From: Blastocatellia bacterium
GTDB lineage: Bacteria > Acidobacteriota > Blastocatellia > Pyrinomonadales > Pyrinomonadaceae
Direction: 5' to 3'
Assembly (NCBI GenBank): GCA_016789145.1
Contig: JAEUQI010000003.1
Coordinates: 5,206-69,205, forward strand
Length of the DNA stretch: 64,000 nucleotides
In this document: piece by piece, positions 8,708 through 56,603 of the stretch
Layout: the number at the start of each line of letters is the position of its first letter
Position numbering within the stretch: the stretch's first letter is position 1
Position numbers and translations under genes: made by a program
Notes under the pieces: model-generated
Database searches by the model: none
The model's input: the letters and a program-made list of their open reading frames with translations, nothing else
What the model was told of the DNA's origin: nothing

Positions 8708-8872
8708 TTTTTCTCAATAAATTGCTCAACAAATCTGGATTTACGATTGCTTTGCGCGTTTTAGGATAACTAAGCTCGTAAGGCAGTTTTTTCTTTTAAA
8801 ATTTAACGAAATGGAGTCCCATCTCGGCTATAATTGTTTTCAGTCGATATCGCTGGGGAAGTTGTCCTATTT

Positions 8873-24621: not shown

Positions 24622-25629
24622 ATGACTGATCCGATCTTAAAAGTTGACGGCCTTAAGACGTATTTCCGTACGGAAGACGGCGTCGTCAAGGCTGTTGACG
24701 ATGTGTCGTTCGAGTTGAAAAAGGGCGAGACGCTTGGGATCGTTGGCGAATCAGGTTCGGGCAAATCGGTGACGAATCTCTCGGTGATGCGGCTGATACA
24801 AACGCCGCCGGGCGAGATCGCGGGCGGCAGCGTTACGTTTGACGGCATTGATGTGCTGGCGTTACCGATCGACGAGGTTCGCAAGATCCGCGGGAAGCGT
24901 ATCGCGATGATCTTTCAAGATCCGATGACGTCGCTAAATCCGTTTCTCAAGATCTCGAAACAGTTGATGGAGGTGACGCAGCTTCATCTCGGCCACACGA
25001 AGACGCAGGCTCGCGAGCATGCCTTGAAGATGCTTCAACTCGTCGGCATTCCCGATGCCGAGCATCGGCTCGACGAATATCCGCACGAATTCTCCGGCGG
25101 CATGCGGCAACGCGTGATGATCGCGATGGCGTTGAGCTGCGAACCGGAATTGCTGATCGCTGACGAACCGACGACCGCTCTCGACGTTACGATCCAAGCC
25201 CAAATTCTCGAGTTGATCAAAGACCTCAAGTCGCGAATGGGCACAAGCGTGATCCTGATCACGCACGACCTCGGCGTCGTCGCCGGCATGACCGACAAAA
25301 TCATAGTAATGTACGCCGGCAAGGTTTTTGAGCAGGCACCGACCAAGGAATTGTTCTCGCGGCCCGCGAATCCTTATACCAAGGGCCTGCTCCGCAGCGT
25401 TCCTGATCCTGCCCACGTACAAGGCAAGGAGCTTTACCAAATTCCCGGCTTGCCGCCCGACGTCGCAAACCTACCGGCGGGCTGCCCGTTTGCCGAACGC
25501 TGCGACCGAGCAGAAGATATCTGCCGCCGCGAGTTTCCGCCGTTTGTTGAGGTTGCCGCAGGACACCATTCGCTTTGTCATTTCGCCGAGCGGGTTTACG
25601 AGCAATCGAAAAGCGAGGTGAATAGCTGA
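24622..25629 (+). CDS. Oligopeptide ABC transporter ATPase (OppD-like)
   Basis: It has Walker A 'GESGSGKS', the signature 'FSGGMRQR', Walker B 'LLIADEPT', and a C-terminal oligopeptide domain with 'CPFAERC'. Confidence 0.9.
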   Translation: MTDPILKVDGLKTYFRTEDGVVKAVDDVSFELKKGETLGIVGESGSGKSVTNLSVMRLIQTPPGEIAGGSVTFDGIDVLALPIDEVRKIRGKRIAMIFQDPMTSLNPFLKISKQLMEVTQLHLGHTKTQAREHALKMLQLVGIPDAEHRLDEYPHEFSGGMRQRVMIAMALSCEPELLIADEPTTALDVTIQAQILELIKDLKSRMGTSVILITHDLGVVAGMTDKIIVMYAGKVFEQAPTKELFSRPANPYTKGLLRSVPDPAHVQGKELYQIPGLPPDVANLPAGCPFAERCDRAEDICRREFPPFVEVAAGHHSLCHFAERVYEQSKSEVNS

Positions 25630-26783
25630 TGTTGATACACCTTAGCTGTCCAAAATGTGCCGCGAATCTCGACGTCAATGACGGCGACCGCTTGGTGAAG
25701 TGTAAGTTCTGCGGTGCGGTCTCTGCACTTAAGTTGGACGAGCGGAAAGAGCCAACGTTGTCGCTAACGGGAGGCAAACAATTTGTGCCGTCCGCAGACG
25801 CTTTGATCACGCTCGACGATCTGAGAGTCCATTACCGCAGCGGCGGCGGGCTTTTGAGTGCGTTCAAGACCGTCAAAGCTGTCGATGGCGTGTCGCTCGA
25901 TATCAAGAAAGGCGAGACGCTTGGCCTCGTCGGCGAATCAGGTTGCGGTAAATCTACGCTTGGAAAAGCGATCCTTAGACTTACAAATCCGACAGGCGGA
26001 AAGGTAATTTACAACGGCAAAGACCTCGCTCATCTGCCAAATTCGGCGATGCGTGACCAGCGAAAGCATCTGCAGATGATCTTTCAAGACCCTTACGCGA
26101 GCCTCAATCCGCGAATGACCGTCGGGCAGATCATCGGTGAACCGTTGAACACGTTCGGACTCAAAGGCAGCGTGAGCGTTGAGCAGTTGATGGAGACAGT
26201 AGGCCTGTCGCGTCGTTTTATAAAACGCTATCCACACGAGTTTTCCGGCGGCCAGCGTCAGCGAATCGGAATTGCCCGAGCACTTGCTGTAGATCCGGAA
26301 TTCATTGTCGCCGATGAACCGATCTCCGCTCTTGATGTCTCAATTCAGGCTCAGATAATGAACCTAATGGAGCGTTTGCAGGCTGAAAAGCAATTGACGT
26401 ATCTGTTCATTTCACACGATTTACGGGCTGTCAGGCATCTATCAGATCGAGTCGCAGTGATGTACCTCGGCCGTATCGTCGAGCTAGCTGACGCAAAAGA
26501 TATCTACAAAGAACCGTTAATGCCATACACGCAGGCATTGATCTCAGCCGTACCAGTTCCCGACCCTGAGGTCGAAGCGAAACGTGAGCGAATCATTTTG
26601 AAAGGCGACGTTCCTTCGCCGATAAACCCGCCGACCGGCTGCCATTTTCACACGCGTTGCCAATACGCTGTCCCCGAATGTAAGACGACGACACCGCAGC
26701 TCGTCGAGATCAAGCCGCGACATTACGCCGCGTGCATTCGCATCTCGCCCGAGCGGCCCCACATATCCGAGAACACGAATTAG
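25629..26783 (+). CDS. Oligopeptide ABC transporter ATPase (OppF-like) with a possible N-terminal zinc-ribbon extension
   Basis: It has Walker A 'GESGCGKS', 'FSGGQRQR', 'FIVADEP' and 'CHFHTRC'. The first 52 codons encode 'CPKC...x14...CKFC'. An alternative in-frame GTG at 25785 is preceded by GGGAGG. Confidence 0.85.
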
Positions 26784-26941
26784 ATCGTTGCCTTCATTCC
26801 GTAAAACCCAAAGGTGGCTAGCTTTATTTGCGGCCTCTCTTTTTTGCTCGCCATCCGGCCTAAAGCGGCGAGCACGCCGAGCACTACGAGCGCGATGATC
26901 GCAATGAGCGTAACAATCTTTGCGACGGTTCTTTCGATCAA
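26780..26941 (-). CDS. Possible small single-pass membrane protein (53 aa, TTG start)
   Basis: This is the C-terminal part of the listed 26780..27175 ORF, 'IERTVAKIVTLIAIIALVVLGVLAALGRMASKKERPQ...', and it contains a clean 20-residue hydrophobic helix. It has no convincing SD. The upstream part of the ORF runs through repeat DNA and is probably not coding. Confidence 0.25.
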   Translation of the reverse strand: MIERTVAKIVTLIAIIALVVLGVLAALGRMASKKERPQIKLATFGFYGMKATI

Positions 26942-26944
26942 AAT

Positions 26945-26978
26945 GGTAGAGGTCTCTTTTTTAAAAAACACCTCTACC
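26945..26978. promoter_or_regulatory. Near-perfect palindrome around an A/T core
   Basis: GGTAGAGGT (26945..26953) pairs with ACCTCTACC (26970..26978), flanking CTCTTTTTTAAAAAAC. The right arm is also the start of the first 22-bp repeat unit. Confidence 0.6.
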
Positions 26979-27059
26979 ACTTGGGCACTTCTCCGGTACC
27001 ACTTTAGGCAAAGTACTCTACCACTTTCCGGAAAGTACTCTACCACTTGGGGTCTAGCT
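26972..27059. repeat. Four tandem 22-bp direct repeats with a conserved CTCTACCACTT core
   Basis: The core TACCACTT starts at 26975, 26997, 27019 and 27041, an exact 22-bp phasing. Units 2 and 3 also contain the internal palindromes ACTTT-N4-AAAGT (27001..27014 and 27023..27036). Confidence 0.85.
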
Positions 27060-27122
27060 GTTACAGATTTGCCTGTAAACACGGCATTCTGGGCATTCAT
27101 TGGCGTGGCACAGCGTTGCATA

Positions 27123-27191
27123 TGTGGTACGTACCACAATTTTGTGCGACAACTTGTAACGCGACTTTTGACCAAATTTGTCGCGCGACAA
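27123..27191. promoter_or_regulatory. Operator-like palindrome cluster upstream of the GGDEF operon
   Basis: There is a 16-bp perfect palindrome TGTGGTACGTACCACA (27123..27138), which reuses the GTACCAC core of the repeats. It is followed by three TTGT-N-GCGAC(AA) sites: TTGTGCGACAA (27142..27152), TTGTAACGCGAC (27154..27165) and the 14-bp perfect palindrome TTGTCGCGCGACAA (27178..27191). Confidence 0.6.
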
Positions 27192-27417
27192 TTCGTGTCA
27201 AAAACAATGAAATTGACCCACGAAAATTTACATTTATAGATCGAATCCTTGTTCCCGCCTTCTCGCCATTGTGCGATCGGAGGCGAGCTGTCTCACGACT
27301 GCGTCTTTTTTATTGAAATCTCATTGCTATTGGGCGTTTTAGCCCGATACAGGAAATTAGCATTTACGAATTCGCGGCGTTATCAACCGTTAGTTCGCGG
27401 GCTATTATTTGACGAAT

Positions 27418-29469
27418 ATGGCACGACTAAAAGAAGTTCCACCGCAAAGAGAATTGAGCGATCTGGCAGACAGTTCCGGCTTGGCGATCTCGGTCATCGA
27501 CCGCAGCGGCGTTGAGACGACGGCGCTCAATAACAATTCGATCTGCCGCAGCCTTAATCCCGACGGCGAGTTTGTCGGCAAGTGCAACGCATTCTGCGGC
27601 AAGGCTCTCGACAATGCTCTTAACGCGGGCCGCGAGATCGGCTTCACGTGTCACGCCGGCCTCGATTGCCGAGCGCTTGCGATGTCAGATAACGGCAAAC
27701 CTGTGGCAGTTGTCGTTGGCCGTACATTTACGAGATCGGAGAACTATCGCAGAGCCGCCTCATTTGCAGCCACAGGCGAATGGAGCTCAATGCCCGTCTC
27801 GGCCATGTTTGGCAACGTACTGCTTACGGGCTCTTCCGTCGCTCTTGAAAAGACGGTCGAAAAGCTCGAACGCCTCGGCCGAGAGATCGAGGTGGAAGTT
27901 CAACCGGCGATGACCGAGACCATCGAGATCGAGCGTTTTGAGCCCGAGATCGTTGATTTCGCCGAGGTCATCGAAGAAGACCTCGAACCGGTCCGAGCAT
28001 TACCAAAAGATGAAACATCCGATTGGCGTTCGCTCTATTCGACGATCTTGAGCCAAGACTATCGCACCGCATGCGAGATGCTGCTCGACTTTGCAGCTGA
28101 TCACTACGGCCTCGGATCGGCGGCTATTCTCGCTGTAAGAAAAGAGAAATTCGTTAACGTCACTGCACGCGGACAAATGGCGATATCAGGAATTCGAATC
28201 GGCATCTCGCCGACTGACGAACGTATCGCAACCGCTATATCCGACGGCGATGCTCTTGTTCTCAGCGAACGCCGCTCAAAAAATGGCGAAGGTCGAACGC
28301 TGACGATCCTGCCCGTCGCCGTCGCAACCGATGCGACCGCGGCGATCGCAACCCTAGACCAGTTCGAAAGTGATGACAGACGGCGCCAGCTATTGCGGCT
28401 CGTGAATACAGTAGCCGGACGGCTCGAGATCTTGCGATTACGCGCCGAGCTCGACGGACGTGAGTCTATCGAACGTTCGGTCAAGAAATTTGACAGCGAA
28501 CTGCGGAATGCCGAGGGCGACGATCTGTGGCAGCAGCTTGCCGCAAATTCTGCTCAACTATTGCAAGCCGAGCGTGCTTCGTTGCTTCTGATTGACGAAT
28601 TGTCCGGTAAATTCCGAGTTGCCGCCTCGGTAGGCATGACCGCCGAAGGCACGGCCGAACAAGATCCCGGACGCCGCGTCGCTCATGCGATATTTGAACG
28701 AGGTAAGACAGCCTTGGTTCCTGACGCCCTCAAGGCCGGACTGCAAGACAATGTCGAGGAACGCGGATATCGCACTCGGTCATTCATCAGCAGCCCTATC
28801 GTGCTTGGCGAAAAAAAGATCGGCGTGCTGAGTTTCACGGACAAAGCAACGTCAACTGCATTTAATGCCAAGGACCTCGAAATGGTAGAGGCCATCGCTC
28901 CGCAGATCGCCGTTGCAATTGACCGAGAAGCCCTCAGGGCAAAGGCCGGTGAGTTCGAACAGCTCTCGGTAACCGACGCTCTGACCGGTTTGCTCAATCG
29001 CCGCTACATAGAGCAGCGTCTGGATGAAGAAGTTAAACGTTCGAATCGTCATGGTTATCCGATGAGTTTTCTCCTGCTCGATGTCGATCATTTCAAATCG
29101 TACAATGACACCTACGGCCATCCGGCGGGCGACGTTGCTCTTAAAATGGTCGCCGACGTGATCAAAGATACGCTGCGTGGAGCTGACGTAGCAGCAAGAT
29201 TTGGCGGTGAAGAATTTGCGATCCTGCTGCCGCAAACGGTTGACGAAGAAGCCGCCGCGATCGCCGAACGTGTCCGCCGCAATATCGAGGCGACCGAGTT
29301 TCCTCATCGCGAGGTGACGGTGAGCATCGGCATTGCCAGCTGTTCGAGTGAACTTTGTTCGACGACAGGCTTGGTAGATGCGGCAGACAAGGCGTTGTAC
29401 GACGCCAAACGATTGGGACGAAACGGCGTCCGAATGTTTGCCCAAATGGAGATAGAGCGTTTTGAATGA
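27418..29469 (+). CDS. Diguanylate cyclase with PocR-like sensor, GAF domain(s) and GGDEF domain
   Basis: The N-terminal Cys/His pattern 'CRSLNPDGEFVGKCNAFCGKA...FTCHAGLDCRALAM' is PocR-like. A GAF-like region follows ('AERASLLLIDE...IGVLSF'). The GGDEF domain has 'LLLDVDHFKSYNDTYGHPAGD', the active site 'GGEEF' (29203..29217) and the I-site 'RGAD' (29176..29187). Confidence 0.88.
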   Translation: MARLKEVPPQRELSDLADSSGLAISVIDRSGVETTALNNNSICRSLNPDGEFVGKCNAFCGKALDNALNAGREIGFTCHAGLDCRALAMSDNGKPVAVVVGRTFTRSENYRRAASFAATGEWSSMPVSAMFGNVLLTGSSVALEKTVEKLERLGREIEVEVQPAMTETIEIERFEPEIVDFAEVIEEDLEPVRALPKDETSDWRSLYSTILSQDYRTACEMLLDFAADHYGLGSAAILAVRKEKFVNVTARGQMAISGIRIGISPTDERIATAISDGDALVLSERRSKNGEGRTLTILPVAVATDATAAIATLDQFESDDRRRQLLRLVNTVAGRLEILRLRAELDGRESIERSVKKFDSELRNAEGDDLWQQLAANSAQLLQAERASLLLIDELSGKFRVAASVGMTAEGTAEQDPGRRVAHAIFERGKTALVPDALKAGLQDNVEERGYRTRSFISSPIVLGEKKIGVLSFTDKATSTAFNAKDLEMVEAIAPQIAVAIDREALRAKAGEFEQLSVTDALTGLLNRRYIEQRLDEEVKRSNRHGYPMSFLLLDVDHFKSYNDTYGHPAGDVALKMVADVIKDTLRGADVAARFGGEEFAILLPQTVDEEAAAIAERVRRNIEATEFPHREVTVSIGIASCSSELCSTTGLVDAADKALYDAKRLGRNGVRMFAQMEIERFE

Positions 29470-31661
29470 GCGACACTAGCTCGCAAAAACTGATTTCAAG
29501 CGTCCCGCTGACCGACCTGATCGGACGGCTGGACGAGATCGCGCGCCTCGAATCACACGCGGCCGGACATTCTGCGGACAATTTGCTGGTCGTCTCGGGT
29601 GCTCCGCGAGTGGGCGTTTCGGAGATCCTTCGTCAGACGTATGATCGCGTTTTTCTAGCCAATGCCGACATATTACCGATCTATTTCTCGGTCTCAGCCA
29701 ATGACCGTGACGCGATCAGCTCGGCACGAAGATTCGCATATGAGTTCCTGTTGCAATTTCTTGCGTTCAAGCGAAACGACGCTTCGTTGCTGGAACTTCG
29801 ACCGAGTCTCGACGAGATAACACGCCTCGCCGGCTTATCAGATGCTGTATTTGTCGATCAGGTCGTCGAACTATTAACGTCAAACGCTGAGAATCCTTGG
29901 GTCGATCTATATCGGACGTTATTCGCATTGCCTTCGCGGCTGAGTGCGGCCGGCACGCGGTGCTTTGTCATATTCGACAATGTTCATCGAGCGTTGAGTT
30001 TCGCTGACAGCGAAGTTGCGATGAATGCGATTAGCGAAGTTTGCATTGAAGCCGGTTTTCCTTGCGTAGTCGGCGGACGTCGGCGTGCAGTTTACGGCAA
30101 GTTCACCGACAAAGTGTTGGCCGTGGAGCGGCTAGGTTTCGAAGACGCAGGCCTACTTATTGAATCGCTCGCTCGAAAGAACAACGTTACGATCAACGAT
30201 CAAACTCGCGACCTCATTGCGGTCCAACTCGACCGAGATCCGCAGTTTATCGGCGACATCATTCGCCGCGCGGCGGTTACAAATACATCGCTAGATAGTT
30301 TTCAAGCGTTCGAATCGGTCTATGCCGACGAGATGAGCGGCGGCATGATCTCGCGGCGATTGGATTCTGAGTTTTCCATCGCGGGTGGCGATCGTGAGCT
30401 TGGTCATGCTCTCTCGTTGCTTACGGCAAAGGTCTCTTCGTCGCCGCAACAGTCTGCCTCGGCAAAGAAGGTCGGCGAGCGTTTGGGAATTGGCTCGATA
30501 GACCTGCAAAGGTCAATGGCATGTTTGTATTCGGCGGAGATCGCGTCGATCAACGGCGATCGATTTATGGTCGAGACCGAATGCAGAGCATTGGACGACT
30601 ATCTCGAACTGCATCGAACAGTGGAAACTCCGGGCATATCGCGTGCACAAGCAATTGGCGAACGAGCCGCTCATTACGTCAAGCGTGCTCCGCATTTGAT
30701 GGCAAGGCATTATCGTCGCCTATCGGCCCTCGGCATTGCGGACTTACTTCGTACGTTCGATGGCCGAGAAGTTCCGCTGGCGATGCTCGATTATGGCAAG
30801 TTTCGCGACGACTTAAAGGGTCGCGATGCGTCTGAGATCGCCGATCGCCTGGCGACTGACACCGACATAATTACATTGCCAAAGATCGTCTACACGGCTC
30901 ATAGCTCTGCATACTATCGCCCGATCGGTGAGTTTGTAGATACAGAACGCTCTGCCGTTGCTCTCGGTTTTGAACAGAATGATGGGAGCGACATCGCGTG
31001 GCTTGCGACCGAGCTTGATTCGAAACTTGAAGCTTCGGCGAGCCTGACCGAGTTTTGGTGCGATCGTCTCGAGATGCTCGCCGCCCATTGCGATCTGCCG
31101 GCATTCAAGATCTGGCTTATCGCTCCCGAAGGCTTTTCGCCGGAGGCTTTGGCAGTTTTAGCAGAGAGAAATGCCATTGGGTCAAGTCGGGCTCAGGTTG
31201 CATTACTACGTTCACATGTTGGCATCGAGAACGTCTCCGCCGTCGATGACAGCGAAGAATTTCGTATGACTATCCCGATGGGGGACGACACCGAAATGCT
31301 CGCAGTTCATATGATCGAAGAGATCGCGAGACGAAACGAGTATCCTAGTTCGGCTATAAACCAGATCAAGACCGCCGTTGTCGAAGCCTGCATCAACGCC
31401 GCAGAACACAGCCTAAGCCCCGATCGCAAGATCTACATCGGCGTTACGGCAAAGAGAGACAACATTCAAATTTCGATCGAAAATCGTGGCGTTAGTGTCG
31501 CGATAAAACAGGCCGCTTCGACCGAGGAGGCGACCGGACGCCGAGGTTGGGGATTGAAGCTTATCAAGAATCTCATGGACGAGCTTGTTTTCCAGCAGTC
31601 GGATGATGGCACGAGGCTCGTGATGTCGAAAACTGTCGAGCGGAAAGCCGCTGCTGCGTAG
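29466..31661 (+). CDS. Large fusion protein: N-terminal AAA_16/STAND-like domain with degenerate Walker A, uncharacterised middle, C-terminal RsbW/SpoIIAB-type serine kinase (HATPase_c_2)
   Basis: The N-terminal 'LIGRLDEIARLESH...LLVVSGAPRVGVSEIL' and 'CFVIFDNVH' resemble a P-loop NTPase, but the Walker A Lys is replaced by Val. The C-terminal 'IKTAVVEACINAAEHS' (N-box) and 'GWGLKLIKNLMDEL' (G-box) match anti-sigma kinase domains. It overlaps the cyclase gene by ATGA. Confidence 0.75.
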   Translation: MSDTSSQKLISSVPLTDLIGRLDEIARLESHAAGHSADNLLVVSGAPRVGVSEILRQTYDRVFLANADILPIYFSVSANDRDAISSARRFAYEFLLQFLAFKRNDASLLELRPSLDEITRLAGLSDAVFVDQVVELLTSNAENPWVDLYRTLFALPSRLSAAGTRCFVIFDNVHRALSFADSEVAMNAISEVCIEAGFPCVVGGRRRAVYGKFTDKVLAVERLGFEDAGLLIESLARKNNVTINDQTRDLIAVQLDRDPQFIGDIIRRAAVTNTSLDSFQAFESVYADEMSGGMISRRLDSEFSIAGGDRELGHALSLLTAKVSSSPQQSASAKKVGERLGIGSIDLQRSMACLYSAEIASINGDRFMVETECRALDDYLELHRTVETPGISRAQAIGERAAHYVKRAPHLMARHYRRLSALGIADLLRTFDGREVPLAMLDYGKFRDDLKGRDASEIADRLATDTDIITLPKIVYTAHSSAYYRPIGEFVDTERSAVALGFEQNDGSDIAWLATELDSKLEASASLTEFWCDRLEMLAAHCDLPAFKIWLIAPEGFSPEALAVLAERNAIGSSRAQVALLRSHVGIENVSAVDDSEEFRMTIPMGDDTEMLAVHMIEEIARRNEYPSSAINQIKTAVVEACINAAEHSLSPDRKIYIGVTAKRDNIQISIENRGVSVAIKQAASTEEATGRRGWGLKLIKNLMDELVFQQSDDGTRLVMSKTVERKAAAA

Positions 31662-31761
31662 GCAATTTGCGAGTTGTAATGGCTTTCGTTCTGTGTTAAA
31701 CATATCACTCAAGTACTATCTCAGTGCGCGCATCGTAAACAAACGTAAGGAATATATTTAA

Positions 31762-32082
31762 GTGATCGCAGAAAACCACTACGAGCCTGCGGCGCCTGCC
31801 GCCGAAAACATCGCGGTCGTGACGGCCGGAGACTATTTGAACAAGCTAACCGGCGAACGCATCGAACGCGAATGCAAGGATCGCCTCGAACAAGGCTGCC
31901 GCGAACTCGTCGTCGATTTTTCGCAGACCGAGGTCATCAACAGCATCGGCATCTCGATCCTGCTCGGCGTTATCGATTCCGCAAAGAACTCGGGCGCAAA
32001 GGTCGTTTTCTCGGAACTCAACGATGACTCCGCACAACTTTTTGAATCGCTCGGCCTAACCAATCATGTGACCATAGCTTAG
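31762..32082 (+). CDS. STAS-domain anti-sigma-factor antagonist (RsbV/SpoIIAA-like)
   Basis: It is 106 aa with a GTG start 8 nt after AAGGAA. 'LVVDFSQTEVINSIGISILLGVI' has a conserved phosphorylatable-Ser position (S61, 31942..31944). Confidence 0.85.
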   Translation: MIAENHYEPAAPAAENIAVVTAGDYLNKLTGERIERECKDRLEQGCRELVVDFSQTEVINSIGISILLGVIDSAKNSGAKVVFSELNDDSAQLFESLGLTNHVTIA

Positions 32083-32092
32083 GAGTTTCGCC

Positions 32093-33382
32093 ATGATCGA
32101 AGATCGTACCAAACTGATCCACGCCTTTGGCGCACTCGCCGAACTCGGCAGCGAAGTCGCCAACAAGAATAGCTTTCAGGAGACCATTCGCACATCGCTG
32201 CATTTGATCTCAGGAGCACTGGCGATCATGCGTGGCGGTGTTGCTCGTTATTCGCGATATGGGCATGAACTGAATATGCTTGCGGTTCGTGGTCTCGGCG
32301 ACGATTTTCCGTTGAGCTTGTCGCTGTGTTTAGAGGACGAAAGACAGTTCATCGCCAACGGCCTGAACGCGATCGAAACGTCACAAGCAAAGGTTTTACC
32401 GTTCTTTCAAGTCTATGATCGCAGCCTCGAATCTCGAAAGATCGAACTGTTTGTGCCGCTCGTTGTTCGTGATGAGATCGTCGGTGCGTTGTTCCTTGGC
32501 GAAAAGGCAACTTCGCTTCCATACACGACCTACGAAAAGGAGATAATCTGCGCGATGGGCCGCCACATTGGCGTCGCTATTGCTCAGCGAAATCTGATGG
32601 CCGAGATCGAACGACACGCAGAAGAGAATCGAAAGTTAGTCGACGATATGCGAACGACCTACAACGATACTGTTAAAGCGTTTGCGACCGCGATCGACTG
32701 CAAAGATAAATATACAGAAGGCCACTCGGTTCGAGTCGGCAAATACAGCGAGATCATCGCAACCGAGCTTGAATGGGGCCCGCAAGAAGTCGAGGGAGCA
32801 GCCGTTGCCGGGTATTTGCACGATGTCGGCAAGCTGACAGTCGAACGAAAGATAATCAATGCCCCGTATCGCATTAACGCAAAAGAATCTGCCGAGCTGA
32901 ACAAGCATCCGGGTGTCGGCTACGAGATCTTGCTGCCGATACACCATCCGTACACCAACGTACCGCTTGCCGCGAAATATCACCACGAACGCCTCGACGG
33001 CCGTGGCTATCCCGACGGATTGTATGATCGCGAAATTCCGTACATAGCAAAGCTCGTCAATCTCGCCGATTCGTTCGATGCGATGACCACCGACCGACCG
33101 TACAAGGCTCGACGCCCGGCGGCGGACGTCGTTGACGATCTCCGACGAAACGCGGGCAAACAGTTCGCACCGGAACTTGTGACGGCATTCCTACGCGGAA
33201 TGTTGAAAGAATTGACCGGCGATAATAAGGAAAAGCGTTTCCGCAAGCTTCTCGGCCGCGAATATATGGAAGCCGAAGGAATTGTCCCGATCCTGCGAAC
33301 GGCATTAAACGAAATGACGCCTACGTCGCCCCTGACCTACATCAATTCAGAGCCACAGGCCGAAGGACCTACTATTTTATAG
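32093..33382 (+). CDS. GAF-domain HD-GYP phosphodiesterase
   Basis: It has an N-terminal GAF-like domain. The HD-GYP motifs are 'EGHSVRVGKY', 'GYLHDVGKL' and 'HHERLDGRGYPDGL'. AGGAG lies 7 nt upstream of the ATG. Confidence 0.88.
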   Translation: MIEDRTKLIHAFGALAELGSEVANKNSFQETIRTSLHLISGALAIMRGGVARYSRYGHELNMLAVRGLGDDFPLSLSLCLEDERQFIANGLNAIETSQAKVLPFFQVYDRSLESRKIELFVPLVVRDEIVGALFLGEKATSLPYTTYEKEIICAMGRHIGVAIAQRNLMAEIERHAEENRKLVDDMRTTYNDTVKAFATAIDCKDKYTEGHSVRVGKYSEIIATELEWGPQEVEGAAVAGYLHDVGKLTVERKIINAPYRINAKESAELNKHPGVGYEILLPIHHPYTNVPLAAKYHHERLDGRGYPDGLYDREIPYIAKLVNLADSFDAMTTDRPYKARRPAADVVDDLRRNAGKQFAPELVTAFLRGMLKELTGDNKEKRFRKLLGREYMEAEGIVPILRTALNEMTPTSPLTYINSEPQAEGPTIL

Positions 33383-33406: not shown

Positions 33407-33447
33407 GGGAACAGCGGGTCTATATTCGCTGTTCCTCTTCTTTGTTT
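33407..33447 (+). terminator. Rho-independent terminator closing the GGDEF/HD-GYP operon
   Basis: A 9-bp perfect stem pairs GGAACAGCG (33408..33416) with CGCTGTTCC (33427..33435). It is followed by TCTTCTTTGTTT. Confidence 0.75.
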
Positions 33448-33520: not shown

Positions 33521-35374
33521 ATGTCAGACGCCGTAGCCAAATATCACGAGGAAGACGCGATCGGAAAGACGTATGATCTTAGGATCGCACGACGTTTGCT
33601 GCGGTATCTGCGACCGTACTGGAAGACGGCCGCGGCGGCTCTGTTTCTCACATTTATCACGAACATTCTGATCTCAACCCAGCCATATTTTACAAAGATG
33701 GCGGTCGATGATTTCATCACGCCAAAGAAGACAGACGGTCTGTGGGTATTCGCCGTCGCGTTTTTTGGTGTGTTCTTGTTCAGGTTCTTGTTCTCATATG
33801 TACAGGAAATTTTGCTCAACACGGTCGGCCAGCGCGTAATGTTCGACATAAGGACCGAGTTGTTTACCAAGCTGCAGAAACAAGAGATAGCGTATTTTGA
33901 CAATTATCCAGTTGGGCGGACGATGACGCGGCTGACCGGCGACGTCGATGCTTTAAATGAATTGTTCACCTCAGGCGTGATCGACGTGCTGGGCGATCTT
34001 GTCATCATCTTTGCGATCCTCGGAATAATGTTCTTCCTTGATTGGAAACTGGCTTTGGTTTCGCTTATTACCGTTCCGTTACTATTCACGGCGACGAATT
34101 GGTTTCGTAAACATGCGAGGACAGGTTTCGACAGAGTCAGAACTCGGAATGCGCGGCTGAATGCGTTTCTACAAGAGTACATTTCGGGTGCTCAAACGGT
34201 TCAGCTTTTCAACGCCGAGGGCAAGGCTAAGTCGCGTTTTCGCAAGATCAACAACGACTATCGCGAAGCAAATATTGAGACGATCTATTACTACTCGATC
34301 TTTTATCCGATGGTGGATCTGATCGGTGCTGTCGGTATTGCCGCAGTGATCTTTTTCTTCGGATTTGAGTATCTAGCCGGATTTTCGACTGCGGGCCAGG
34401 CCGTGACAATCGGTATTCTTGCGTCTTTCATTCAGTATTCGCTTCAATTATTTCAGCCGATCCGCGATCTGTCGGACAAATTCAATGTGCTGCAGGCGGC
34501 GATCGTTGCGTCGCATCGGATATTTATTCTGTTGGATAGAGATATCGAGGTAACTTCGCCGGCGGAGCCGAAACACGAGGGCAAGGTCGTCGGTAGGATC
34601 GAGTTTGAGAATGTTTGGTTCGCTTATAAAGAGGAAGATTGGGTTTTGAAAGATGTTTCGTTCACGGTCGAACCTGGCGAAAGCATCGCGCTTGTTGGGC
34701 ATACCGGCTCGGGCAAAACGACGATCACGAATTTGATAATGCGGTTCTACGATGTTCAGAGAGGCCGTATACTGCTCGACGGAACCGATATTCGCGAATG
34801 GAACCTACATGATCTGAGATCGAATTTTGCTGTCGTCTTGCAAGACGTTTTCCTATTTCGCGGTACTGTCGCCGAGAACATCAGGCTTGGAAATTCGAAG
34901 ATCGACGATGACGCGATAATGTGGGCGGCAAAAGAAGTTCGGGCAGATGAATTTATCGCGAAACTCGACGACGGCTATTCGTCTGAGGTGCAGGAACGTG
35001 GTGCGGGGCTTTCTGTCGGGCAAAAACAACTGATATCATTTGCGAGAGCATTGTCTTTCGATCCGTCGATTCTGATCCTGGATGAGGCGACTAGCTCGAT
35101 AGACACCGAGACGGAACAGTTGATACAACAGGCCGTTACGCGCGTGATGACTGGCCGTACATCGCTGGTAGTCGCGCATCGCCTGTCGACGATTCAGGAC
35201 TGTGACCGTATAATTGTGATGCATCATGGCGAGTTGCGCGAGATCGGAACACACGCCGAATTATTGGCAAATCGTGGGCTGTATTGGCGTCTATATCGTT
35301 TGCAGTATTCCGACGAAAAGCTGCATATTTCAGAGCCCGGAATCACGACAGAGGGCTACGTTTCGCCGGCTTAG
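33521..35374 (+). CDS. ABC exporter, fused permease-ATPase (MsbA/multidrug type)
   Basis: It has an N-terminal six-helix TMD, Walker A 'GHTGSGKTT', the signature 'LSVGQKQ' and Walker B 'ILILDEATS'. Confidence 0.88.
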
Positions 35375-35379
35375 AACTG

Positions 35380-36366
35380 ATGAATTCAGACACCTCACAA
35401 TACCTAACTGACGAAATTGCTCGCATTTACGAGCAGTGTGAGGCTGAGGCTCCAAATCTCGGCGTTACGCTCCTGCAATTCTCATCGTCGATCGAACGCA
35501 CCGTTGCCAAATATCTCGAACCAGCTTCAGATACACCCATAACTACCGAAGAAATTCGTGAGTTTTTCGACAATCTTCAGGCAAATGATCTGTTCCTAGC
35601 TCTCGCGTGTTCGGTCGGAAACGAACGGGCTTGGTGGGAATTTGACCAGCAGCATCGCTCGTATATGGAACGGGTCGCACGTCATTTGGCAAAAACCGAG
35701 ATCGACGCGACCGAGGTCGTCGATGCGGTTTACGTCGAGCTTTACGGCACGAGGGTAGTCGATGGCGAGCGAGTTTCTAAGTTCGCACTATACAGCGGAC
35801 GCGGTTCGCTGCGAGGATGGCTGCGTACTGTGATCTGGCATTCGGTGGTCGATCTACATCGCGCAGGCCATGGCGAAGTTTCGCTCGACGAGATGACCGA
35901 AAACATCGGTGAAGGAGCAGCCCACGCAAACTTTGCCCTAGAGAATCCGACCGGCGAAGACGCTGCTGAGAGAGAACTTATACGCAGCCGGTATCGTGCC
36001 GCAACGGTCGCTTCGCTCGCTGAGGCAATGTCCTCACTCGACGCCCACGAACGCCTCTTACTCAAGTATTATCACGTAGATGGATTAAAGCTAAGAGAGA
36101 TCTCTCGGCTGGCTGAGAACGAGAGTTCGCCTCTAAGAGACTGGTTTCAACGGCGTTCGCAAACGCGTGAAGCAAAGCCCGATGCCAAGGTTTACGAATC
36201 GACCGTAATGCGTTGGCTGGAGAAGAGTTACGCTATTATTCAGCAACGATTTCGGGACGAATTGGCATCGAAGCACGGGCTTTCGCCAAAGGACATCGAT
36301 CTGTGTTTGGAGCTTGCATCCGAAGACGTGCACTCAGGCGGTTTGTTTGGAAATTTAGGAAGTTAA
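35380..36366 (+). CDS. Atypical long ECF-like sigma-70 family factor
   Basis: 'DLFLALACSVGNERAWWEFDQQH' and 'SLRGWLRTVIWHSVVDLHR' look like region 2. 'ERLLLKYYHVDGLKLREISRLA...YESTVMRWLEKS' looks like region 4. It is 328 aa against about 190 for a typical ECF. The ATG lies 5 nt after the ABC exporter stop. Confidence 0.7.
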   Translation: MNSDTSQYLTDEIARIYEQCEAEAPNLGVTLLQFSSSIERTVAKYLEPASDTPITTEEIREFFDNLQANDLFLALACSVGNERAWWEFDQQHRSYMERVARHLAKTEIDATEVVDAVYVELYGTRVVDGERVSKFALYSGRGSLRGWLRTVIWHSVVDLHRAGHGEVSLDEMTENIGEGAAHANFALENPTGEDAAERELIRSRYRAATVASLAEAMSSLDAHERLLLKYYHVDGLKLREISRLAENESSPLRDWFQRRSQTREAKPDAKVYESTVMRWLEKSYAIIQQRFRDELASKHGLSPKDIDLCLELASEDVHSGGLFGNLGS

Positions 36367-36426
36367 AAGTTTTTTCCGTTAGTTACGCAAAAGTTGCGCT
36401 AAGGTCGCGTCTATCTAACGGAGGTA

Positions 36427-36855
36427 ATGTCAGTGATGAAAGAGTTCGAAAAGATCGCAAAAGTAAACGACAGATTTCAAGCAATCGTGGCTGAATTTCT
36501 GATCGCGGACGATTCGGACATCTCCGGCAGCCTCCATCATCTTGATAACGATACGCTGGCGGCGTTTACCGAAGGTTCAATGTCCCAACGTGAGGCTCGC
36601 CCTGTTGTCGCCCACCTCGCCGCATGCGGTCATTGCCGCAATATTACGGTCGAGTTGGTTCGAACCGAAATGGCTATGGCAGGCGAAGACCGTAATGAAC
36701 CGGTGACGGAATCAACCCCGGCGACGATCTCGTCGGTGCTGAGTGGAATAGTCTCTCGCCTCTTCGAACGGAGTGACGCGGCAGTTTTTGCCCACGGCGA
36801 GAAAGAAGAAGAAGCCGACGAAGACAAGACAAAAGAGAGCGACAAGGAAGACTAA
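36427..36855 (+). CDS. Putative zinc-binding (ZAS, HxxxCxxC) anti-sigma factor, soluble, with an acidic tail
   Basis: It has 'VAHLAACGHCRN', no TM helix, and the C-terminus 'EKEEEADEDKTKESDKED'. GGAGGT lies just upstream. Confidence 0.65.
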   Translation: MSVMKEFEKIAKVNDRFQAIVAEFLIADDSDISGSLHHLDNDTLAAFTEGSMSQREARPVVAHLAACGHCRNITVELVRTEMAMAGEDRNEPVTESTPATISSVLSGIVSRLFERSDAAVFAHGEKEEEADEDKTKESDKED

Positions 36856-51638: not shown

Positions 51639-51741
51639 CTTTTTCTTTTAAGTTCCTAGTTCCAAGTTCCACGTTCCATGTTTCTATTGACTCACACGTT
51701 TCAGGCTCCGAAACTTGGAACCCGAAACGTGAAACCTGAAA

Positions 51742-56190
<4,449 letters not shown>

Positions 56191-56556
56191 ATTAAAACCA
56201 ATTGCGCCTCACGCGCTTTAGGGGTAAAAAACCTGTTGACGTATCGCGCTCGACTTGTTACGATGCTCGTAATCCAAGTTTTACGGCTACGTTTGCCATA
56301 GAAAGACGGCAAATGCGGTCTTGGGTAAAGTTTTCCCAGACCGCTTGATAAGCAGTAGATGCCTTAACTAATTTTTCCGAGCGTGTCGGTGTAAGACACT
56401 CACTCCCCATTTGTGCGGCCTAAATACCGCTGAAAAAACCACGATAGTGCGGCATAAATGCCCCAAGATCGTATTGCTGAACATCGCAGATCGGGAAAAA
56501 CCGTCCAAACCTCGCGAAACTATCAGCTTAACAGCACTTTTTTCAATAAGCAAGCA

Positions 56557-56587: not shown

Positions 56588-56603
56588 CGTTATTGCTGAT
56601 CTA

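What the first reader, a model, noticed from the sequence alone, without database searches (positions are those of the whole stretch)
29466..31661. RsbW-type anti-sigma kinase fused to a large STAND/AAA_16-like domain with a dead Walker A
- Classical RsbW/SpoIIAB proteins are about 140-160 aa. Here the kinase domain (about 31263..31661; 'VEACINAAEHS', 'GWGLKLIKNLMDEL') is the C-terminus of a 731-aa protein.
- The N-terminus has the layout of AAA_16/Arch_ATPase-type signalling NTPases: 'IGRLDEIARLESH...(gap)...LLVVSGAPRVGVSEIL' and the Walker-B-like 'CFVIFDNVH'.
- The invariant Walker A Lys is Val (GAPRVGVSE, 29598..29624), and the second acidic Walker B residue is Asn. This suggests a nucleotide-binding-defective scaffold or pseudo-ATPase.
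- About 350 residues between the two domains match nothing I recognise.
- A STAND-like sensor or scaffold hard-wired to a partner-switching kinase is unusual. It would provide the input domain of the module.
Basis: partly seen in the sequence, partly recalled or inferred. Interest (0 to 1): 0.65.

Follow-up and report, generated by a model that had tools for sequence, protein, structure and literature searches.

The report
AAA+-fused RsbW kinase in c-di-GMP operon
A real, conserved 731-residue protein joins a lysine-less AAA+ ATPase-like module and a nuclease-like domain to an RsbW-type serine kinase, and it sits in a conserved four-gene operon with a STAS protein and the enzymes that make and break cyclic-di-GMP, which suggests an undescribed partner-switching circuit aimed at this second messenger instead of a sigma factor.

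Summary
ORF 29466..31661 (+) encodes 731 aa. Its C-terminus is RsbW/SpoIIAB-like (Pfam 2e-18; fold TM 0.77-0.92). Its N-terminus is a true P-loop fold with Val in place of the Walker A Lys. More than 200 full-length homologues exclude a fusion artefact.

The interpretation needs three corrections:
- The N-terminal module is a classical AAA+ (Arch_ATPase PF01637 / Orc1-Cdc6 type, with lid and winged helix), not demonstrably STAND.
- The 'unrecognisable' middle resolves into lid, wHTH, helical linker and a PD-(D/E)xK-nuclease-like domain.
- The lysine loss is clade-wide (197 of 214 members). Distant relatives keep GK[ST].

New findings:
- The kinase G1-box Asp is never present (Asn or Ser).
- The gene lies in a conserved cassette: PocR-GAF-GGDEF, kinase, STAS, GAF-HD-GYP. 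The DGC is adjacent in 75/76 loci, and STAS always comes with HD-GYP.
- The kinase/STAS/HD-GYP triad recurs in Nitrospirota.
- No sigma factor or PP2C phosphatase is linked.

Most likely this is a partner-switching-type module that controls c-di-GMP turnover, with the AAA+ module as a non-hydrolysing scaffold or sensor. That mechanism is inferred, not shown. I rate it a new variant of a known kind, of moderate to high interest.

The parts
27409..29469 (+). Upstream gene: PocR-(unassigned)-GAF-GGDEF diguanylate cyclase, 686 aa. The GGEEF active site and the RxxD I-site are intact. Its stop codon overlaps the kinase start (ATGA).
   Evidence: Pfam GGDEF 7.7e-48, GAF 7e-15, PocR 2.7e-6. GGEEF and RxxD are invariant in 78/78 orthologues. 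The gene is adjacent upstream in 75/76 assessable loci. The overlap is seen.
29466..31661 (+). The 731-aa multidomain kinase: AAA+ base, lid, wHTH, helical linker, PD-(D/E)xK-like domain and RsbW-type GHKL kinase.
   Evidence: ORF. AF2 model pLDDT 85, pTM 0.74. Full-length homologues.
29517..30131 (+). AAA+ alpha/beta base (residues ~18-222), Arch_ATPase / Orc1-Cdc6-like.
   Evidence: Foldseek hits 2qen, 2qby, 2fna and 2v1u at E 1e-7 to 3e-6, TMt 0.52-0.56. Profile against PDB: 2fna at 1.8e-6, plus RFC, Hda and Clp. Pfam per family member: AAA_16 in 21/26, ATPase_2 in 11/26.
29598..29624 (+). Degenerate Walker A, G45-A-P-R-V-G50-V51-S52-E53. The Lys position is Val.
   Evidence: Read directly from the sequence. 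Position 51 is K in 17 and non-K in 197 of 214 members. P47, G50, S/T52 and E53 are conserved.
29961..29987 (+). Walker B-like strand C166-FVIF-D171-N172-VH.
   Evidence: D171 is invariant. Position 172 is relaxed in the K-less clade (D 102, G 34, N 31, A 15 and others) and is D/E in 14/17 K-bearing members.
30078..30086 (+). R205-R206-R207, directly after strand beta4 (the sensor-1 / Arg-finger region).
   Evidence: R206 is present in 195/197 and R207 in 194/197 K-less members, against 5/17 and 6/17 K-bearing members. The assignment of this position to sensor-1/Arg-finger is inferred from the AAA+ topology of the model.
30138..30440 (+). AAA+ helical lid (residues ~225-325).
   Evidence: All-helical in the model. 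It aligns within the Orc1/Cdc6, RFC and Hda-lid hits.
30441..30581 (+). Winged helix-turn-helix (residues ~326-372). This is the least conserved domain.
   Evidence: The model shows a strand, two helices and a beta-hairpin. Weak hits to ArsR, GntR and MarR-type wHTH. Conservation 0.39, the lowest of any domain.
30582..30725 (+). Helical linker (residues ~373-420).
   Evidence: Long helices at 374-387 and 393-420 in the model.
30726..31235 (+). PD-(D/E)xK (restriction-endonuclease)-like domain (residues 421-590). Its catalytic status is unresolved.
   Evidence: Stand-alone model pLDDT 94, pTM 0.89. The top Foldseek hits are EndoMS/NucS, AF1548, MspJI, AspBHI, Cap4, HamA and FokI, at E 3e-4 to 0.1 and TM only 0.3-0.39. 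No Pfam or PDB sequence hit.
31011..31031 (+). Clade-specific motif E516-L-D518-S-K520-L-E522 in the nuclease-like domain.
   Evidence: E-x-[DE]-x-K is present in 178/197 K-less members (10 more have Q at the first position) and in 0/17 K-bearing members.
31254..31646 (+). RsbW/SpoIIAB-type GHKL Ser-kinase domain (residues ~597-727).
   Evidence: Pfam HATPase_c_2 at 2e-18. Profile against PDB: RsbW 1.7e-20, SpoIIAB 5e-12. Foldseek: 6m36 TMt 0.92, 1l0o TMt 0.77.
31383..31409 (+). N-box, E640-A-C-I-N644-A-A-E-H648.
   Evidence: E640, N644 and H648 are invariant. E640 aligns with RsbW Glu49, which contacts RsbV Ser56 (PMC7340262).
31482..31490 (+). Non-canonical G1 box, N673-R-G675. Asn replaces the adenine-contacting Asp.
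   Evidence: The alignment to SpoIIAB places D-E-G opposite N-R-G. The position is N in 198 and S in 16 of 214 members, never D. It is T in the Nitrospirota short form (read by eye).
31539..31553 (+). G2 box, R692-R693-G694-W-G696.
   Evidence: R693, G694 and G696 are invariant.
31762..32082 (+). STAS anti-sigma-antagonist-like protein, 106 aa. The phosphorylatable Ser61 is the codon agc at 31942-31944.
   Evidence: Pfam STAS 2.7e-11. Ser61 aligns with the phospho-Ser of SpoIIAA. It is invariant in 49/49 orthologues and is also present in the distant loci L083-L085.
32093..33382 (+). GAF-HD-GYP c-di-GMP phosphodiesterase, 429 aa.
   Evidence: Pfam HD_5 at 1.8e-28. The HD and GYP motifs are invariant in 45/45 and 44/44 orthologues. 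Whenever STAS is seen downstream, HD-GYP is with it (37/37).
33407..33436 (+). Terminator-like hairpin (13-bp stem followed by a T-rich tail) that closes the four-gene unit.
   Evidence: No + strand terminator-like site was found between 27409 and 33382.

Best explanation
ORF 29466..31661 encodes the kinase component of a four-gene, sigma-factor-independent, partner-switching-type module that controls cyclic-di-GMP turnover.

Shown:
- The protein is AAA+ base, lid, wHTH, helical linker, PD-(D/E)xK-like domain and RsbW-type GHKL kinase.
- In this acidobacterial clade the AAA+ site has lost the Walker A Lys and the second Walker B acidic residue is relaxed. The P-loop surroundings remain strongly conserved.
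- The gene is translationally coupled to an upstream PocR-GAF-GGDEF cyclase.
- It is followed by a STAS protein with an invariant phospho-acceptor Ser, and by a GAF-HD-GYP phosphodiesterase.

Inferred:
1. The kinase domain binds the STAS protein and phosphorylates Ser61.
2. Unphosphorylated STAS binds and modulates its constant neighbour, the HD-GYP phosphodiesterase, and possibly the cyclase. This would parallel how HsbA, BgrV and SiaC act on cyclases.
3. The AAA+/nuclease-like module no longer hydrolyses ATP. It acts as an oligomerising scaffold or ligand/protein sensor that couples the state of the co-translated cyclase to kinase activity.
4. The net effect would be that synthesis and degradation of c-di-GMP are switched reciprocally.
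5. The phosphatase that resets STAS is encoded elsewhere or is unconventional.
For: - Architecture and folds.
- Not an artefact.
- Walker A state: K in 17 and non-K in 197 of 214 members. Walker B second residue is D/E in 14/17 K-bearing members against 105/197 K-less ones.
- Continued selection on the P-loop: the P-loop plus helix alpha1 is more conserved (0.70) than the AAA+ base as a whole (0.54).
- Kinase competence: N-box and G2 invariant. E640 and K635 match the RsbW residues that contact RsbV.
- Substrate: STAS Ser61 aligns with the SpoIIAA phospho-Ser and is invariant in 49/49 orthologues.
- Partner enzymes look active: GGEEF and I-site in 78/78, HD in 45/45, GYP in 44/44.
- Linkage: cyclase adjacent in 75/76 loci. 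STAS lies within 6 kb in 37/68 loci and is always with HD-GYP.
- The same four-gene cassette surrounds a 22%-identical K-bearing relative (L087) and occurs in L084 and L085.
- The kinase/STAS/HD-GYP triad recurs in the Nitrospirota short form.
- Operon signals: ATGA overlap, 10-nt STAS-to-PDE spacing, and a single terminator after the PDE.
- No conserved sigma factor.
- Precedents for STAS-type proteins that control cyclases: PMC5085249 and PMC8457831.
Against: - No interaction or activity was tested. Every mechanistic step is inferred from domain content and gene linkage.
- No PP2C/SpoIIE phosphatase is present in the 64-kb window or in the 6-10 kb flanks examined, so a reversible switch is incomplete as seen.
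- The G1-box Asp that contacts adenine in GHKL enzymes is absent throughout the family. Kinase activity with ATP is therefore not assured.
- STAS and HD-GYP are missing within 6 kb in 31/68 loci.
- In L086 a stand-alone PocR protein replaces the cyclase and no HD-GYP follows.
- A wHTH plus a nuclease-like domain would also fit a nucleic-acid-related role.
Confidence: 0.5

Rival explanations
1. Classical anti-sigma factor. The RsbW domain sequesters a sigma factor encoded elsewhere, STAS is its antagonist, and the c-di-GMP enzymes are co-regulated neighbours that are not targets.
For: - The closest characterised relatives of the C-terminal domain are SpoIIAB and RsbW.
- The STAS protein is anti-sigma-antagonist-like.
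- The window has a weak sigma-70-like ORF and a zf-HC2 anti-sigma about 3.6 kb downstream.
Against: - That sigma-like/zf-HC2 pair is absent from all 89 related loci.
- No sigma gene is part of the conserved cassette in any phylum sampled.
- By contrast, the linkage to GGDEF and HD-GYP genes survives down to 22% identity.
- The protein scores far below the NCBIfam equivalog cutoffs for SpoIIAB and RsbW (45 bits against 135-155).
Confidence: 0.15
2. Double pseudo-enzyme scaffold. Both nucleotide sites are inert (a lysine-less P-loop and a GHKL pocket lacking the G1 Asp). The protein only binds STAS and the cyclase stoichiometrically, without phosphotransfer.
For: - Walker A Lys is absent and Walker B is relaxed.
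- The G1 Asp is never present.
- Kinase-dead RsbW homologues that act purely by binding are known in mycobacteria (PMC7693655).
- No phosphatase is linked to the cassette.
Against: - The N-box (Glu, Asn, His) and the G2 box are invariant.
- The STAS phospho-acceptor Ser is invariant in 49/49 orthologues and in distant loci, which is hard to explain without phosphorylation.
- Asn at the G1 position is compatible with nucleotide binding in VanS and ThkA, and with a GTP-dependent kinase (bioRxiv 10.1101/2022.12.12.520123).
Confidence: 0.15
3. A nucleic-acid-directed or defence-type NTPase. AAA+, wHTH and a restriction-endonuclease-like domain would act on DNA, with the kinase as an effector or regulator.
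For: - The domain set (AAA+ of Orc1/Cdc6 type, wHTH, PD-(D/E)xK-like fold) is typical of DNA-handling and defence proteins.
- A conserved E-x-D-x-K motif is present in this clade.
Against: - No PADLOC hit, and no meaningful PHROG hit.
- The locus is a stable chromosomal location with conserved synteny (Opp transporter upstream) across Pyrinomonadaceae, not a variable island.
- The wHTH is the least conserved domain.
- The E-x-D-x-K motif is absent from K-bearing relatives, and the nuclease-like domain is missing altogether from the short form, although both keep the same STAS/HD-GYP partners.
- The fold match is modest (TM 0.3-0.39), and no upstream catalytic Asp was identified.
Confidence: 0.05
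4. The long ORF is an assembly or frameshift artefact that joins two genes.
For: None found.
Against: More than 200 full-length homologues from independent assemblies, including complete MAG chromosomes, have the same length and align end to end.
Confidence: 0.01

Closest known systems
RsbW / SpoIIAB anti-sigma factor Ser kinases (HATPase_c_2, GHKL superfamily) with their STAS antagonists RsbV / SpoIIAA
   Same: - Same fold (TM 0.77-0.92).
- Conserved N-box Glu/Asn and G2 box.
- The Glu and Lys that contact the antagonist are conserved.
- An adjacent single-domain STAS protein has Ser at the phospho-acceptor position.
   Different: - 731 aa against ~145 aa.
- The kinase is the C-terminal fifth of a multidomain protein.
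- The G1 Asp is replaced by Asn.
- No sigma factor or PP2C phosphatase is in the conserved locus.
- It scores far below the equivalog cutoffs.
Partner-switching systems that control diguanylate cyclases: HptB-HsbR-HsbA-HsbD (P. aeruginosa), BgrSTUWV-BgrR (S. meliloti) and SiaABCD (P. aeruginosa)
   Same: - An RsbW-like kinase plus a STAS-type (or STAS-like) protein is encoded with a c-di-GMP enzyme.
- In those systems the phospho-state of the small protein decides binding to, and activity of, the cyclase (PMC5085249, PMC8457831).
   Different: - All three include a PP2C phosphatase, and their input domains are REC or others.
- Here the input is an AAA+/nuclease-like module.
- The most constant enzymatic partner of the STAS protein here is an HD-GYP phosphodiesterase, not a cyclase.
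- A cyclase and a phosphodiesterase bracket the pair.
Arch_ATPase (Pfam PF01637 ATPase_2) proteins such as SSO1545 (2fna) and PABY2304 (2qen), and Orc1/Cdc6 AAA+ initiators
   Same: - AAA+ base, helical lid and winged helix in the same order.
- These are the best fold and profile matches.
- K-bearing relatives pass PF01637.
   Different: - The window protein has no Walker A Lys.
- It has an extra nuclease-like domain and a GHKL kinase.
- The function of the archaeal proteins is itself unknown.
Multidomain RsbW-containing proteins: SypE (V. fischeri), HsbR (Pseudomonas), and Rv1364c (M. tuberculosis; from my own knowledge and the reference list of PMC7693655)
   Same: An RsbW-like kinase domain is embedded in a larger signalling protein that acts on a STAS partner.
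   Different: Those proteins carry REC, PAS and PP2C domains. None has an AAA+ or a PD-(D/E)xK-like module.
STAND NTPases (NACHT, NB-ARC, MalT/LAL; some fall under AAA_16)
   Same: The order P-loop domain, helical domain, winged helix. The role would be a signalling scaffold and not a motor.
   Different: - No significant profile match to STAND families.
- No repeat sensor domain.
- The best matches are classical AAA+ proteins.

Membership tests
RsbW/SpoIIAB-type anti-sigma factor Ser kinase (HATPase_c_2) | Bergerat/GHKL fold matching HATPase_c_2 | tested here: met
   PF13581 at E=2e-18, 67 bits against a cutoff of 27.4. Foldseek: RsbW 6m36 TMt 0.92, SpoIIAB 1l0o TMt 0.77.
RsbW/SpoIIAB-type anti-sigma factor Ser kinase (HATPase_c_2) | N-box (E-x-x-x-N) and G2 box (G-x-G) | tested here: met
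   E640, N644, R693, G694 and G696 are invariant in the family.
RsbW/SpoIIAB-type anti-sigma factor Ser kinase (HATPase_c_2) | G1 box D-x-G-x-G, with an Asp that contacts the adenine N6 | tested here: not met
   N673-R-G-V-S in the window. The position is N in 198 and S in 16 of 214 members, never D.
RsbW/SpoIIAB-type anti-sigma factor Ser kinase (HATPase_c_2) | Cognate STAS antagonist with a phosphorylatable Ser encoded alongside | tested here: met
   STAS at 31762..32082. Ser61 aligns with the SpoIIAA phospho-Ser and is invariant in 49/49 orthologues.
RsbW/SpoIIAB-type anti-sigma factor Ser kinase (HATPase_c_2) | Binds and inhibits a cognate sigma factor, usually encoded in the same operon | tested here: not met
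   Only the genomic association could be tested. There is no sigma gene in the cassette, and the window's sigma-like ORF is absent from 89 related loci. Binding itself is not testable with these tools.
RsbW/SpoIIAB-type anti-sigma factor Ser kinase (HATPase_c_2) | Passes the NCBIfam equivalog models (spIIAB TIGR01925, RsbW NF003144/TIGR01924) | tested here: not met
   36-45 bits against cutoffs of 135-155.
AAA+ ATPase, Arch_ATPase (PF01637) / Orc1-Cdc6-like | P-loop alpha/beta base, helical lid and winged helix | tested here: met
   AF2 model. Foldseek hits 2qen, 2fna, 2qby and 2v1u at probability 1.0, TMt 0.52-0.56. Profile hit to 2fna at E=1.8e-6.
AAA+ ATPase, Arch_ATPase (PF01637) / Orc1-Cdc6-like | Pfam model matched above the gathering score | tested here: not met
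   The window protein has only AAA_16 at 16 bits (cutoff 32.6) and no PF01637 hit. Among relatives, PF01637 is hit in 11/26 (best 4.5e-11) and AAA_16 in 21/26.
AAA+ ATPase, Arch_ATPase (PF01637) / Orc1-Cdc6-like | Walker A G-x-x-x-x-G-K-[ST] | tested here: not met
   G-A-P-R-V-G-V-S in the window. The Lys is absent from 197/214 members and present in 17/214 and in the Nitrospirota short form.
AAA+ ATPase, Arch_ATPase (PF01637) / Orc1-Cdc6-like | Walker B hhhhD[DE] | tested here: inconclusive
   D171 is invariant. The second residue is Asn in the window and variable in the clade.
STAND NTPases | Significant profile or fold match to NACHT, NB-ARC, MalT or other STAND families | tested here: not met
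   Only NPHP3_N in 2/26 members and nSTAND1 in 1/26. NRC4 appears at Foldseek rank 22, behind many classical AAA+ proteins. No STAND protein appears in the profile search against PDB.
STAND NTPases | C-terminal repeat sensor (TPR, WD40, LRR) | tested here: not met
   The C-terminal half is a nuclease-like domain plus a GHKL kinase.
PD-(D/E)xK nuclease superfamily | Restriction-endonuclease-like alpha/beta core | tested here: inconclusive
   The top Foldseek hits are nearly all PD-(D/E)xK proteins (EndoMS E=3e-4, AF1548, MspJI, AspBHI, Cap4, HamA, FokI), but TM is only 0.3-0.39. No sequence-level hit.
PD-(D/E)xK nuclease superfamily | Catalytic D...(D/E)-x-K residues | tested here: inconclusive
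   D518-S-K520 is present in the K-less clade only. It lies just after the strand in the model, and no conserved upstream Asp was found.
Partner-switching system controlling c-di-GMP enzymes (Hsb, Bgr, Sia type) | RsbW-like kinase, STAS-type protein and c-di-GMP enzyme in one locus | tested here: met
   Four-gene unit at 27409..33382, conserved across loci.
Partner-switching system controlling c-di-GMP enzymes (Hsb, Bgr, Sia type) | PP2C-type phosphatase that resets the STAS protein | tested here: not met
   None in the 64-kb window or in the flanks of L001, L002 and L083-L089. The rest of the genome could not be searched.
Partner-switching system controlling c-di-GMP enzymes (Hsb, Bgr, Sia type) | Phospho-dependent binding of the STAS protein to the enzyme | not testable with these tools
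   This needs biochemistry or complex modelling.

The most novel reading that the evidence does not exclude
One or both non-canonical nucleotide pockets have been retuned to guanine nucleotides. The candidates are the lysine-less but strongly conserved P-loop (with its clade-specific Arg206/Arg207) and the G1-Asn GHKL site. The protein would then sense GTP, c-di-GMP or pGpG directly, or would use GTP as phosphodonor. That would make the four-gene cassette a self-contained c-di-GMP homeostat: the messenger, or its precursor, sets STAS phosphorylation, and STAS phosphorylation in turn toggles the HD-GYP phosphodiesterase against the co-translated cyclase.
Probability: 0.12. Interest if true: 0.8.

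Novelty: new variant of a known kind. Interest (0 to 1): 0.6.

Why it matters
- Partner-switching modules are known mainly as sigma-factor switches. A few are known to control diguanylate cyclases. Here a conserved cassette, found in several phyla, pairs the kinase/STAS couple with an HD-GYP phosphodiesterase and usually also a cyclase. It has no sigma factor and no PP2C phosphatase.
- The input module is an AAA+ domain. In one large acidobacterial clade that domain has lost its catalytic lysine yet stays under strong selection.
- If the inferred wiring is right, this would be, to my knowledge, the first partner-switching control of c-di-GMP degradation. It would also offer a natural comparison of an active and a 'dead' AAA+ sensor in an otherwise identical circuit.
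- It gives a testable handle on second-messenger regulation in Acidobacteriota, an abundant soil phylum that is poorly studied genetically.

Tried and rejected
1. Fusion artefact: rejected by the full-length homologues.
2. STAND classification: not supported by the profile and fold searches.
3. Sequence-level identity of the middle domain: Pfam per member at E<=5 and a profile search against PDB gave nothing. There was a single stray NA-iREase3 hit at E=0.063.
4. Kinase-domain-only homologue search, intended to find stand-alone outgroups and judge how unusual the G1 Asn is: it returned mostly truncated fragments of the same family on short contigs, so it was uninformative.
5. Search for a PP2C phosphatase, a sigma factor or a riboswitch in the neighbourhood: none found.
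6. Defence-system reading: no PADLOC hit and no meaningful PHROG hit.
7. DUF2383 gene, which lies between the Opp transporter and the cyclase in relatives: absent from the window.
8. Repeated CTCTACCACTT motif upstream of the operon as a conserved operator: not conserved in related loci.
9. Literature searches for the AAA_16/PF01637 + HATPase_c_2 architecture, or for STAS + HD-GYP partner switching: nothing found in the searchable library.
10. Taxon names for the K-bearing long-form members could not be obtained.
11. Whether K520 or R206/R207 lie near the P-loop could not be checked, because model coordinates are not exposed.

Full report
**1. Observation**

The window contains an uninterrupted ATG-initiated ORF at 29466..31661 (+) that encodes 731 aa. 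GAPRVGVSE is encoded at 29598..29624. CFVIFDNVH is residues 166-174.

The C-terminal ~130 residues match HATPase_c_2 at E=2e-18. They match SpoIIAB and RsbW chains directly and through a family profile, with RsbW at 1.7e-20. For the window protein alone the N-terminal AAA_16 match is marginal, at 16 bits against a cutoff of 32.6.

The ORF is not an artefact. More than 120 clusters at 90% identity and about 170 clusters at 50% identity have the same 700-780 aa length and align end to end. The 80 best genomic loci all come from Pyrinomonadaceae, Blastocatellia or Chloracidobacterium MAGs, some of them complete chromosomes.

**2. Anatomy**

An AlphaFold2 model built on 37 homologues is confident, with mean pLDDT 85 and pTM 0.74. 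Foldseek against the PDB gives the following picture.

- Residues ~1-400 match the archaeal 'Walker-type ATPase' PABY2304 (2qen), SSO1545 (2fna), Orc1/Cdc6 (2qby, 2v1u), RFC subunits and RuvB.
- The C-terminus matches RsbW (TMt 0.92) and SpoIIAB (TMt 0.77).

At sequence level the family profile hits SSO1545 (E=1.8e-6), RFC, Hda and Clp, but no STAND protein. Of 26 diverse members, 21 hit AAA_16 and 11 hit PF01637 ATPase_2. The N-terminal module is therefore a bona fide P-loop fold. It is a classical AAA+ of the Arch_ATPase/Orc1-Cdc6 type, made of a base (~18-222), a helical lid (~225-325) and a winged helix (~326-372). A STAND assignment is not demonstrated.

Residues 421-590 were modelled alone (pLDDT 94, pTM 0.89). 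The hits were almost exclusively PD-(D/E)xK nucleases: EndoMS/NucS, AF1548, MspJI, AspBHI, Cap4, HamA and FokI. TM-scores were only 0.3-0.39, and no sequence-level family was detectable. I call this domain nuclease-like and leave its catalytic status unresolved.

**3. The 'dead' Walker A**

I aligned 214 full-length members to a family HMM.

- The Walker A lysine position is K in 17 members. It is A, V, S, T, L, C, I, G or Q in the other 197.
- The K-bearing members are 22-29% identical to the window protein. They have a canonical G-x-x-x-x-G-K-[ST]-E and hhhhD[DE].
- A shorter Nitrospirota form of ~560 aa lacks the nuclease-like domain and also has a canonical Walker A.

The lysine loss is therefore a clade-wide derived state within a family of otherwise canonical AAA+ proteins. 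The second Walker B acidic residue is relaxed in the K-less clade (D 102, G 34, N 31, A 15 and others). That fits a loss of hydrolysis.

The site is not decaying, however. P47, G50, S/T52, E53 and D171 are essentially invariant. The P-loop plus helix alpha1 is more conserved (0.70) than the AAA+ base overall (0.54).

Two further features are fixed in the K-less clade only.

- R206 and R207, directly after strand beta4, occur in 195 and 194 of 197 K-less members, against 5 and 6 of 17 K-bearing members.
- An E516-x-[DE]518-x-K520 motif in the nuclease-like domain occurs in 178/197 K-less members (10 more have Q at the first position) and in 0/17 K-bearing members.

These contrasts may reflect a single evolutionary event. 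They are therefore descriptive and do not amount to statistical evidence of compensation.

**4. The kinase domain**

The N-box (E640, N644, H648) and the G2 box (R693-G-x-G696) are invariant. E640 aligns with RsbW Glu49, which contacts the phospho-acceptor Ser56 of RsbV. K635 aligns with RsbW Lys44 (PMC7340262).

The G1-box Asp contacts the adenine amino group in GHKL enzymes (bioRxiv 10.1101/2022.12.12.520123; PMC9137472). In this family it is never present. The position is Asn in 198 and Ser in 16 of 214 members, and by my reading it is Thr in the short form.

According to the VanS preprint, Asp-to-Asn at this position is rare. It is compatible with an Asn-adenine hydrogen bond in ThkA, with weak ATP binding in VanS, and with a GTP-dependent histidine kinase of B. 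anthracis (Scaramozzino et al. 2009, as cited there). The kinase is therefore plausibly active, but with unverified nucleotide preference.

**5. Context**

The gene lies in a compact unit of four genes.

- **Cyclase.** A PocR-GAF-GGDEF diguanylate cyclase (27409..29469) has a stop codon that overlaps the kinase start as ATGA.
- **STAS.** A 106-aa STAS protein begins 100 nt downstream of the kinase gene (31762..32082).
- **Phosphodiesterase.** A GAF-HD-GYP phosphodiesterase follows after 10 nt (32093..33382).
- **Terminator.** A 13-bp-stem terminator-like hairpin follows at 33407..33436. No terminator-like site lies inside the unit.

Conservation across 82 loci is as follows.

| Feature | Result |
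|---|---|
| Cyclase directly upstream | 75 of 76 assessable loci |
| STAS within 6 kb downstream | 37 of 68 assessable loci |
| HD-GYP present whenever STAS is present | 37 of 37 |
| STAS Ser61 (aligns with SpoIIAA phospho-Ser) | 49 of 49 |
| GGEEF and RxxD I-site | 78 of 78 |
| HD motif | 45 of 45 |
| GYP motif | 44 of 44 |

The linkage is old.

- A K-bearing relative at 22% identity has the identical four-gene cassette (L087).
- Two further K-bearing relatives have GGDEF, kinase, STAS and HD-GYP in the same order (L084 and L085).
- Another has the kinase, STAS and HD-GYP (L083).
- The Nitrospirota short form is again followed by STAS and GAF-HD-GYP (L088 and L089).
- In L086 a stand-alone PocR protein replaces the cyclase, and no HD-GYP follows.

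No PP2C/SpoIIE phosphatase was found in the whole window or in the flanks examined. The sigma-like/zf-HC2 pair about 3.6 kb downstream in the window is absent from all 89 other loci. There is no Rfam hit, no PADLOC hit and no meaningful PHROG hit.

**6. Most likely mechanism**

The shown facts are the domain architecture, the motif states and the gene linkage. From them I infer a partner-switching-type circuit whose target is c-di-GMP metabolism, not a sigma factor.

1. The GHKL domain binds the STAS protein and phosphorylates Ser61.
2. The unphosphorylated STAS protein binds its constant neighbour, the HD-GYP phosphodiesterase, and perhaps also the cyclase. This parallels the documented action of HsbA on HsbD, BgrV on BgrR and SiaC on SiaD (PMC5085249; PMC8457831).
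3. The AAA+/nuclease-like module is co-translated with the cyclase. It acts as a non-hydrolysing oligomeric scaffold or sensor that sets kinase activity.

The two tight gene pairs, cyclase with kinase and STAS with phosphodiesterase, suggest that the kinase-STAS contact links synthesis to degradation.

The weak points are these.

- There is no phosphatase.
- The G1 box is non-canonical.
- STAS and HD-GYP are absent within 6 kb in 31 of 68 loci.
- There are no interaction data at all.

I put about 0.5 on this model as a whole. I put much more, above 0.9, on the architecture and the cassette.

**7. Rivals**

- A classical anti-sigma role (0.15) has no conserved sigma partner.
- A double pseudo-enzyme scaffold (0.15) fits the degenerate sites and the missing phosphatase. 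It does not explain the invariant N-box, G2 box and STAS Ser.
- A DNA-directed or defence role (0.05) fits the wHTH and the nuclease-like fold. Against it stand the stable chromosomal synteny, the poor conservation of the wHTH (0.39, the lowest of all domains), the absence of the nuclease-like domain from the short form with the same partners, and the empty PADLOC result.
- A fusion artefact is refuted.

**8. Comparison and novelty**

Multidomain RsbW-containing proteins exist (SypE, HsbR, Rv1364c), and partner-switching control of cyclases is established. I found no description of any of the following in the searchable literature:

- an AAA+ (PF01637-type) input fused to an RsbW kinase;
- a partner-switching pair constantly coupled to an HD-GYP phosphodiesterase;
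- the clade-wide lysine-less yet conserved P-loop in this setting.

Databases name these proteins only 'ATP-binding protein' or 'serine/threonine-protein kinase RsbW'. I classify the finding as a new variant of a known kind. My interest score is 0.6.

**9.

- Right: the fusion, the P-loop fold, the dead Walker A and its conservation.
- Not supported: the STAND label.
- Resolved: the 'unrecognisable' middle.
- Missed: the c-di-GMP operon context and the non-canonical G1 box. These are the most informative features of the locus.

Noticed in passing
window 26941-27051: There is a cluster of four to five copies of CTCTACCACTT (one inverted), partly at 22-nt spacing, about 360-470 nt upstream of the cyclase start. 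A GTGGTACGTACCAC palindrome follows at about 27123-27138. The window has 6 matches against 0.4 expected by shuffling. The array is not conserved upstream of the cassette in any related locus, so it may be a strain-specific operator array or a remnant.
   Followed up: partly
window 26783-27409: A 626-nt stretch between the Opp ATPase gene and the cyclase has no convincing ORF. Relatives (L001, L002) carry a 176-aa DUF2383 gene on the minus strand at this position. tblastn finds no trace of it in the window.
   Followed up: yes
window 25629-26783: The OppF-like ABC ATPase has an N-terminal extension of about 55 residues with two CxxC pairs (CPKC...CKFC), resembling a zinc ribbon. Most orthologues in related loci align only from residue ~50 onward. 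A few (L017, L041, L050, L053) align from the start.
   Followed up: no
window 35284-36855: A 360-aa ORF has only weak sigma-70 region 2 and region 4 matches (E 0.002 and 0.07). It is followed by a zf-HC2 anti-sigma-like protein. The annotated TTG start overlaps the end of the ABC exporter gene by 90 nt, so the true start is probably later. The pair is not linked to the cassette in other loci.
   Followed up: partly
related loci L002-L082 compared with the window: The GAF-HD-GYP phosphodiesterase is far more conserved across Pyrinomonadaceae (typically 69-89% identity, 96% in the closest locus; ~50-60% in the most divergent ones) than the kinase (36-46%), the cyclase (34-56%) or the STAS protein (51-74%) encoded beside it.
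   Followed up: no
L088 5681-6787 and L001 16006-16542: In the Nitrospirota locus a dual-specificity/PTP-like phosphatase gene (PTP-SAK, DSPc) lies directly upstream of the short-form kinase. Another lies about 6 kb downstream in the acidobacterial locus L001. It could be a non-PP2C candidate for the missing phosphatase, or it could be coincidence. It is absent from L089.
   Followed up: no
L086 9253-9954: In one K-bearing relative the gene upstream of the kinase is a stand-alone 233-aa PocR-domain protein, not a PocR-GAF-GGDEF cyclase. This hints that the PocR domain may be the element functionally tied to the AAA+ kinase.
   Followed up: no
window 47337-61709 (minus strand): This is an ordinary housekeeping cluster: rpoC, rpoB, ribosomal proteins L10 and L1, and EF-Tu. 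ClpB lies at 8834-11275 and a two-component pair at 1082-2661. The window is therefore core chromosome of an acidobacterium, not a mobile element.
   Followed up: yes
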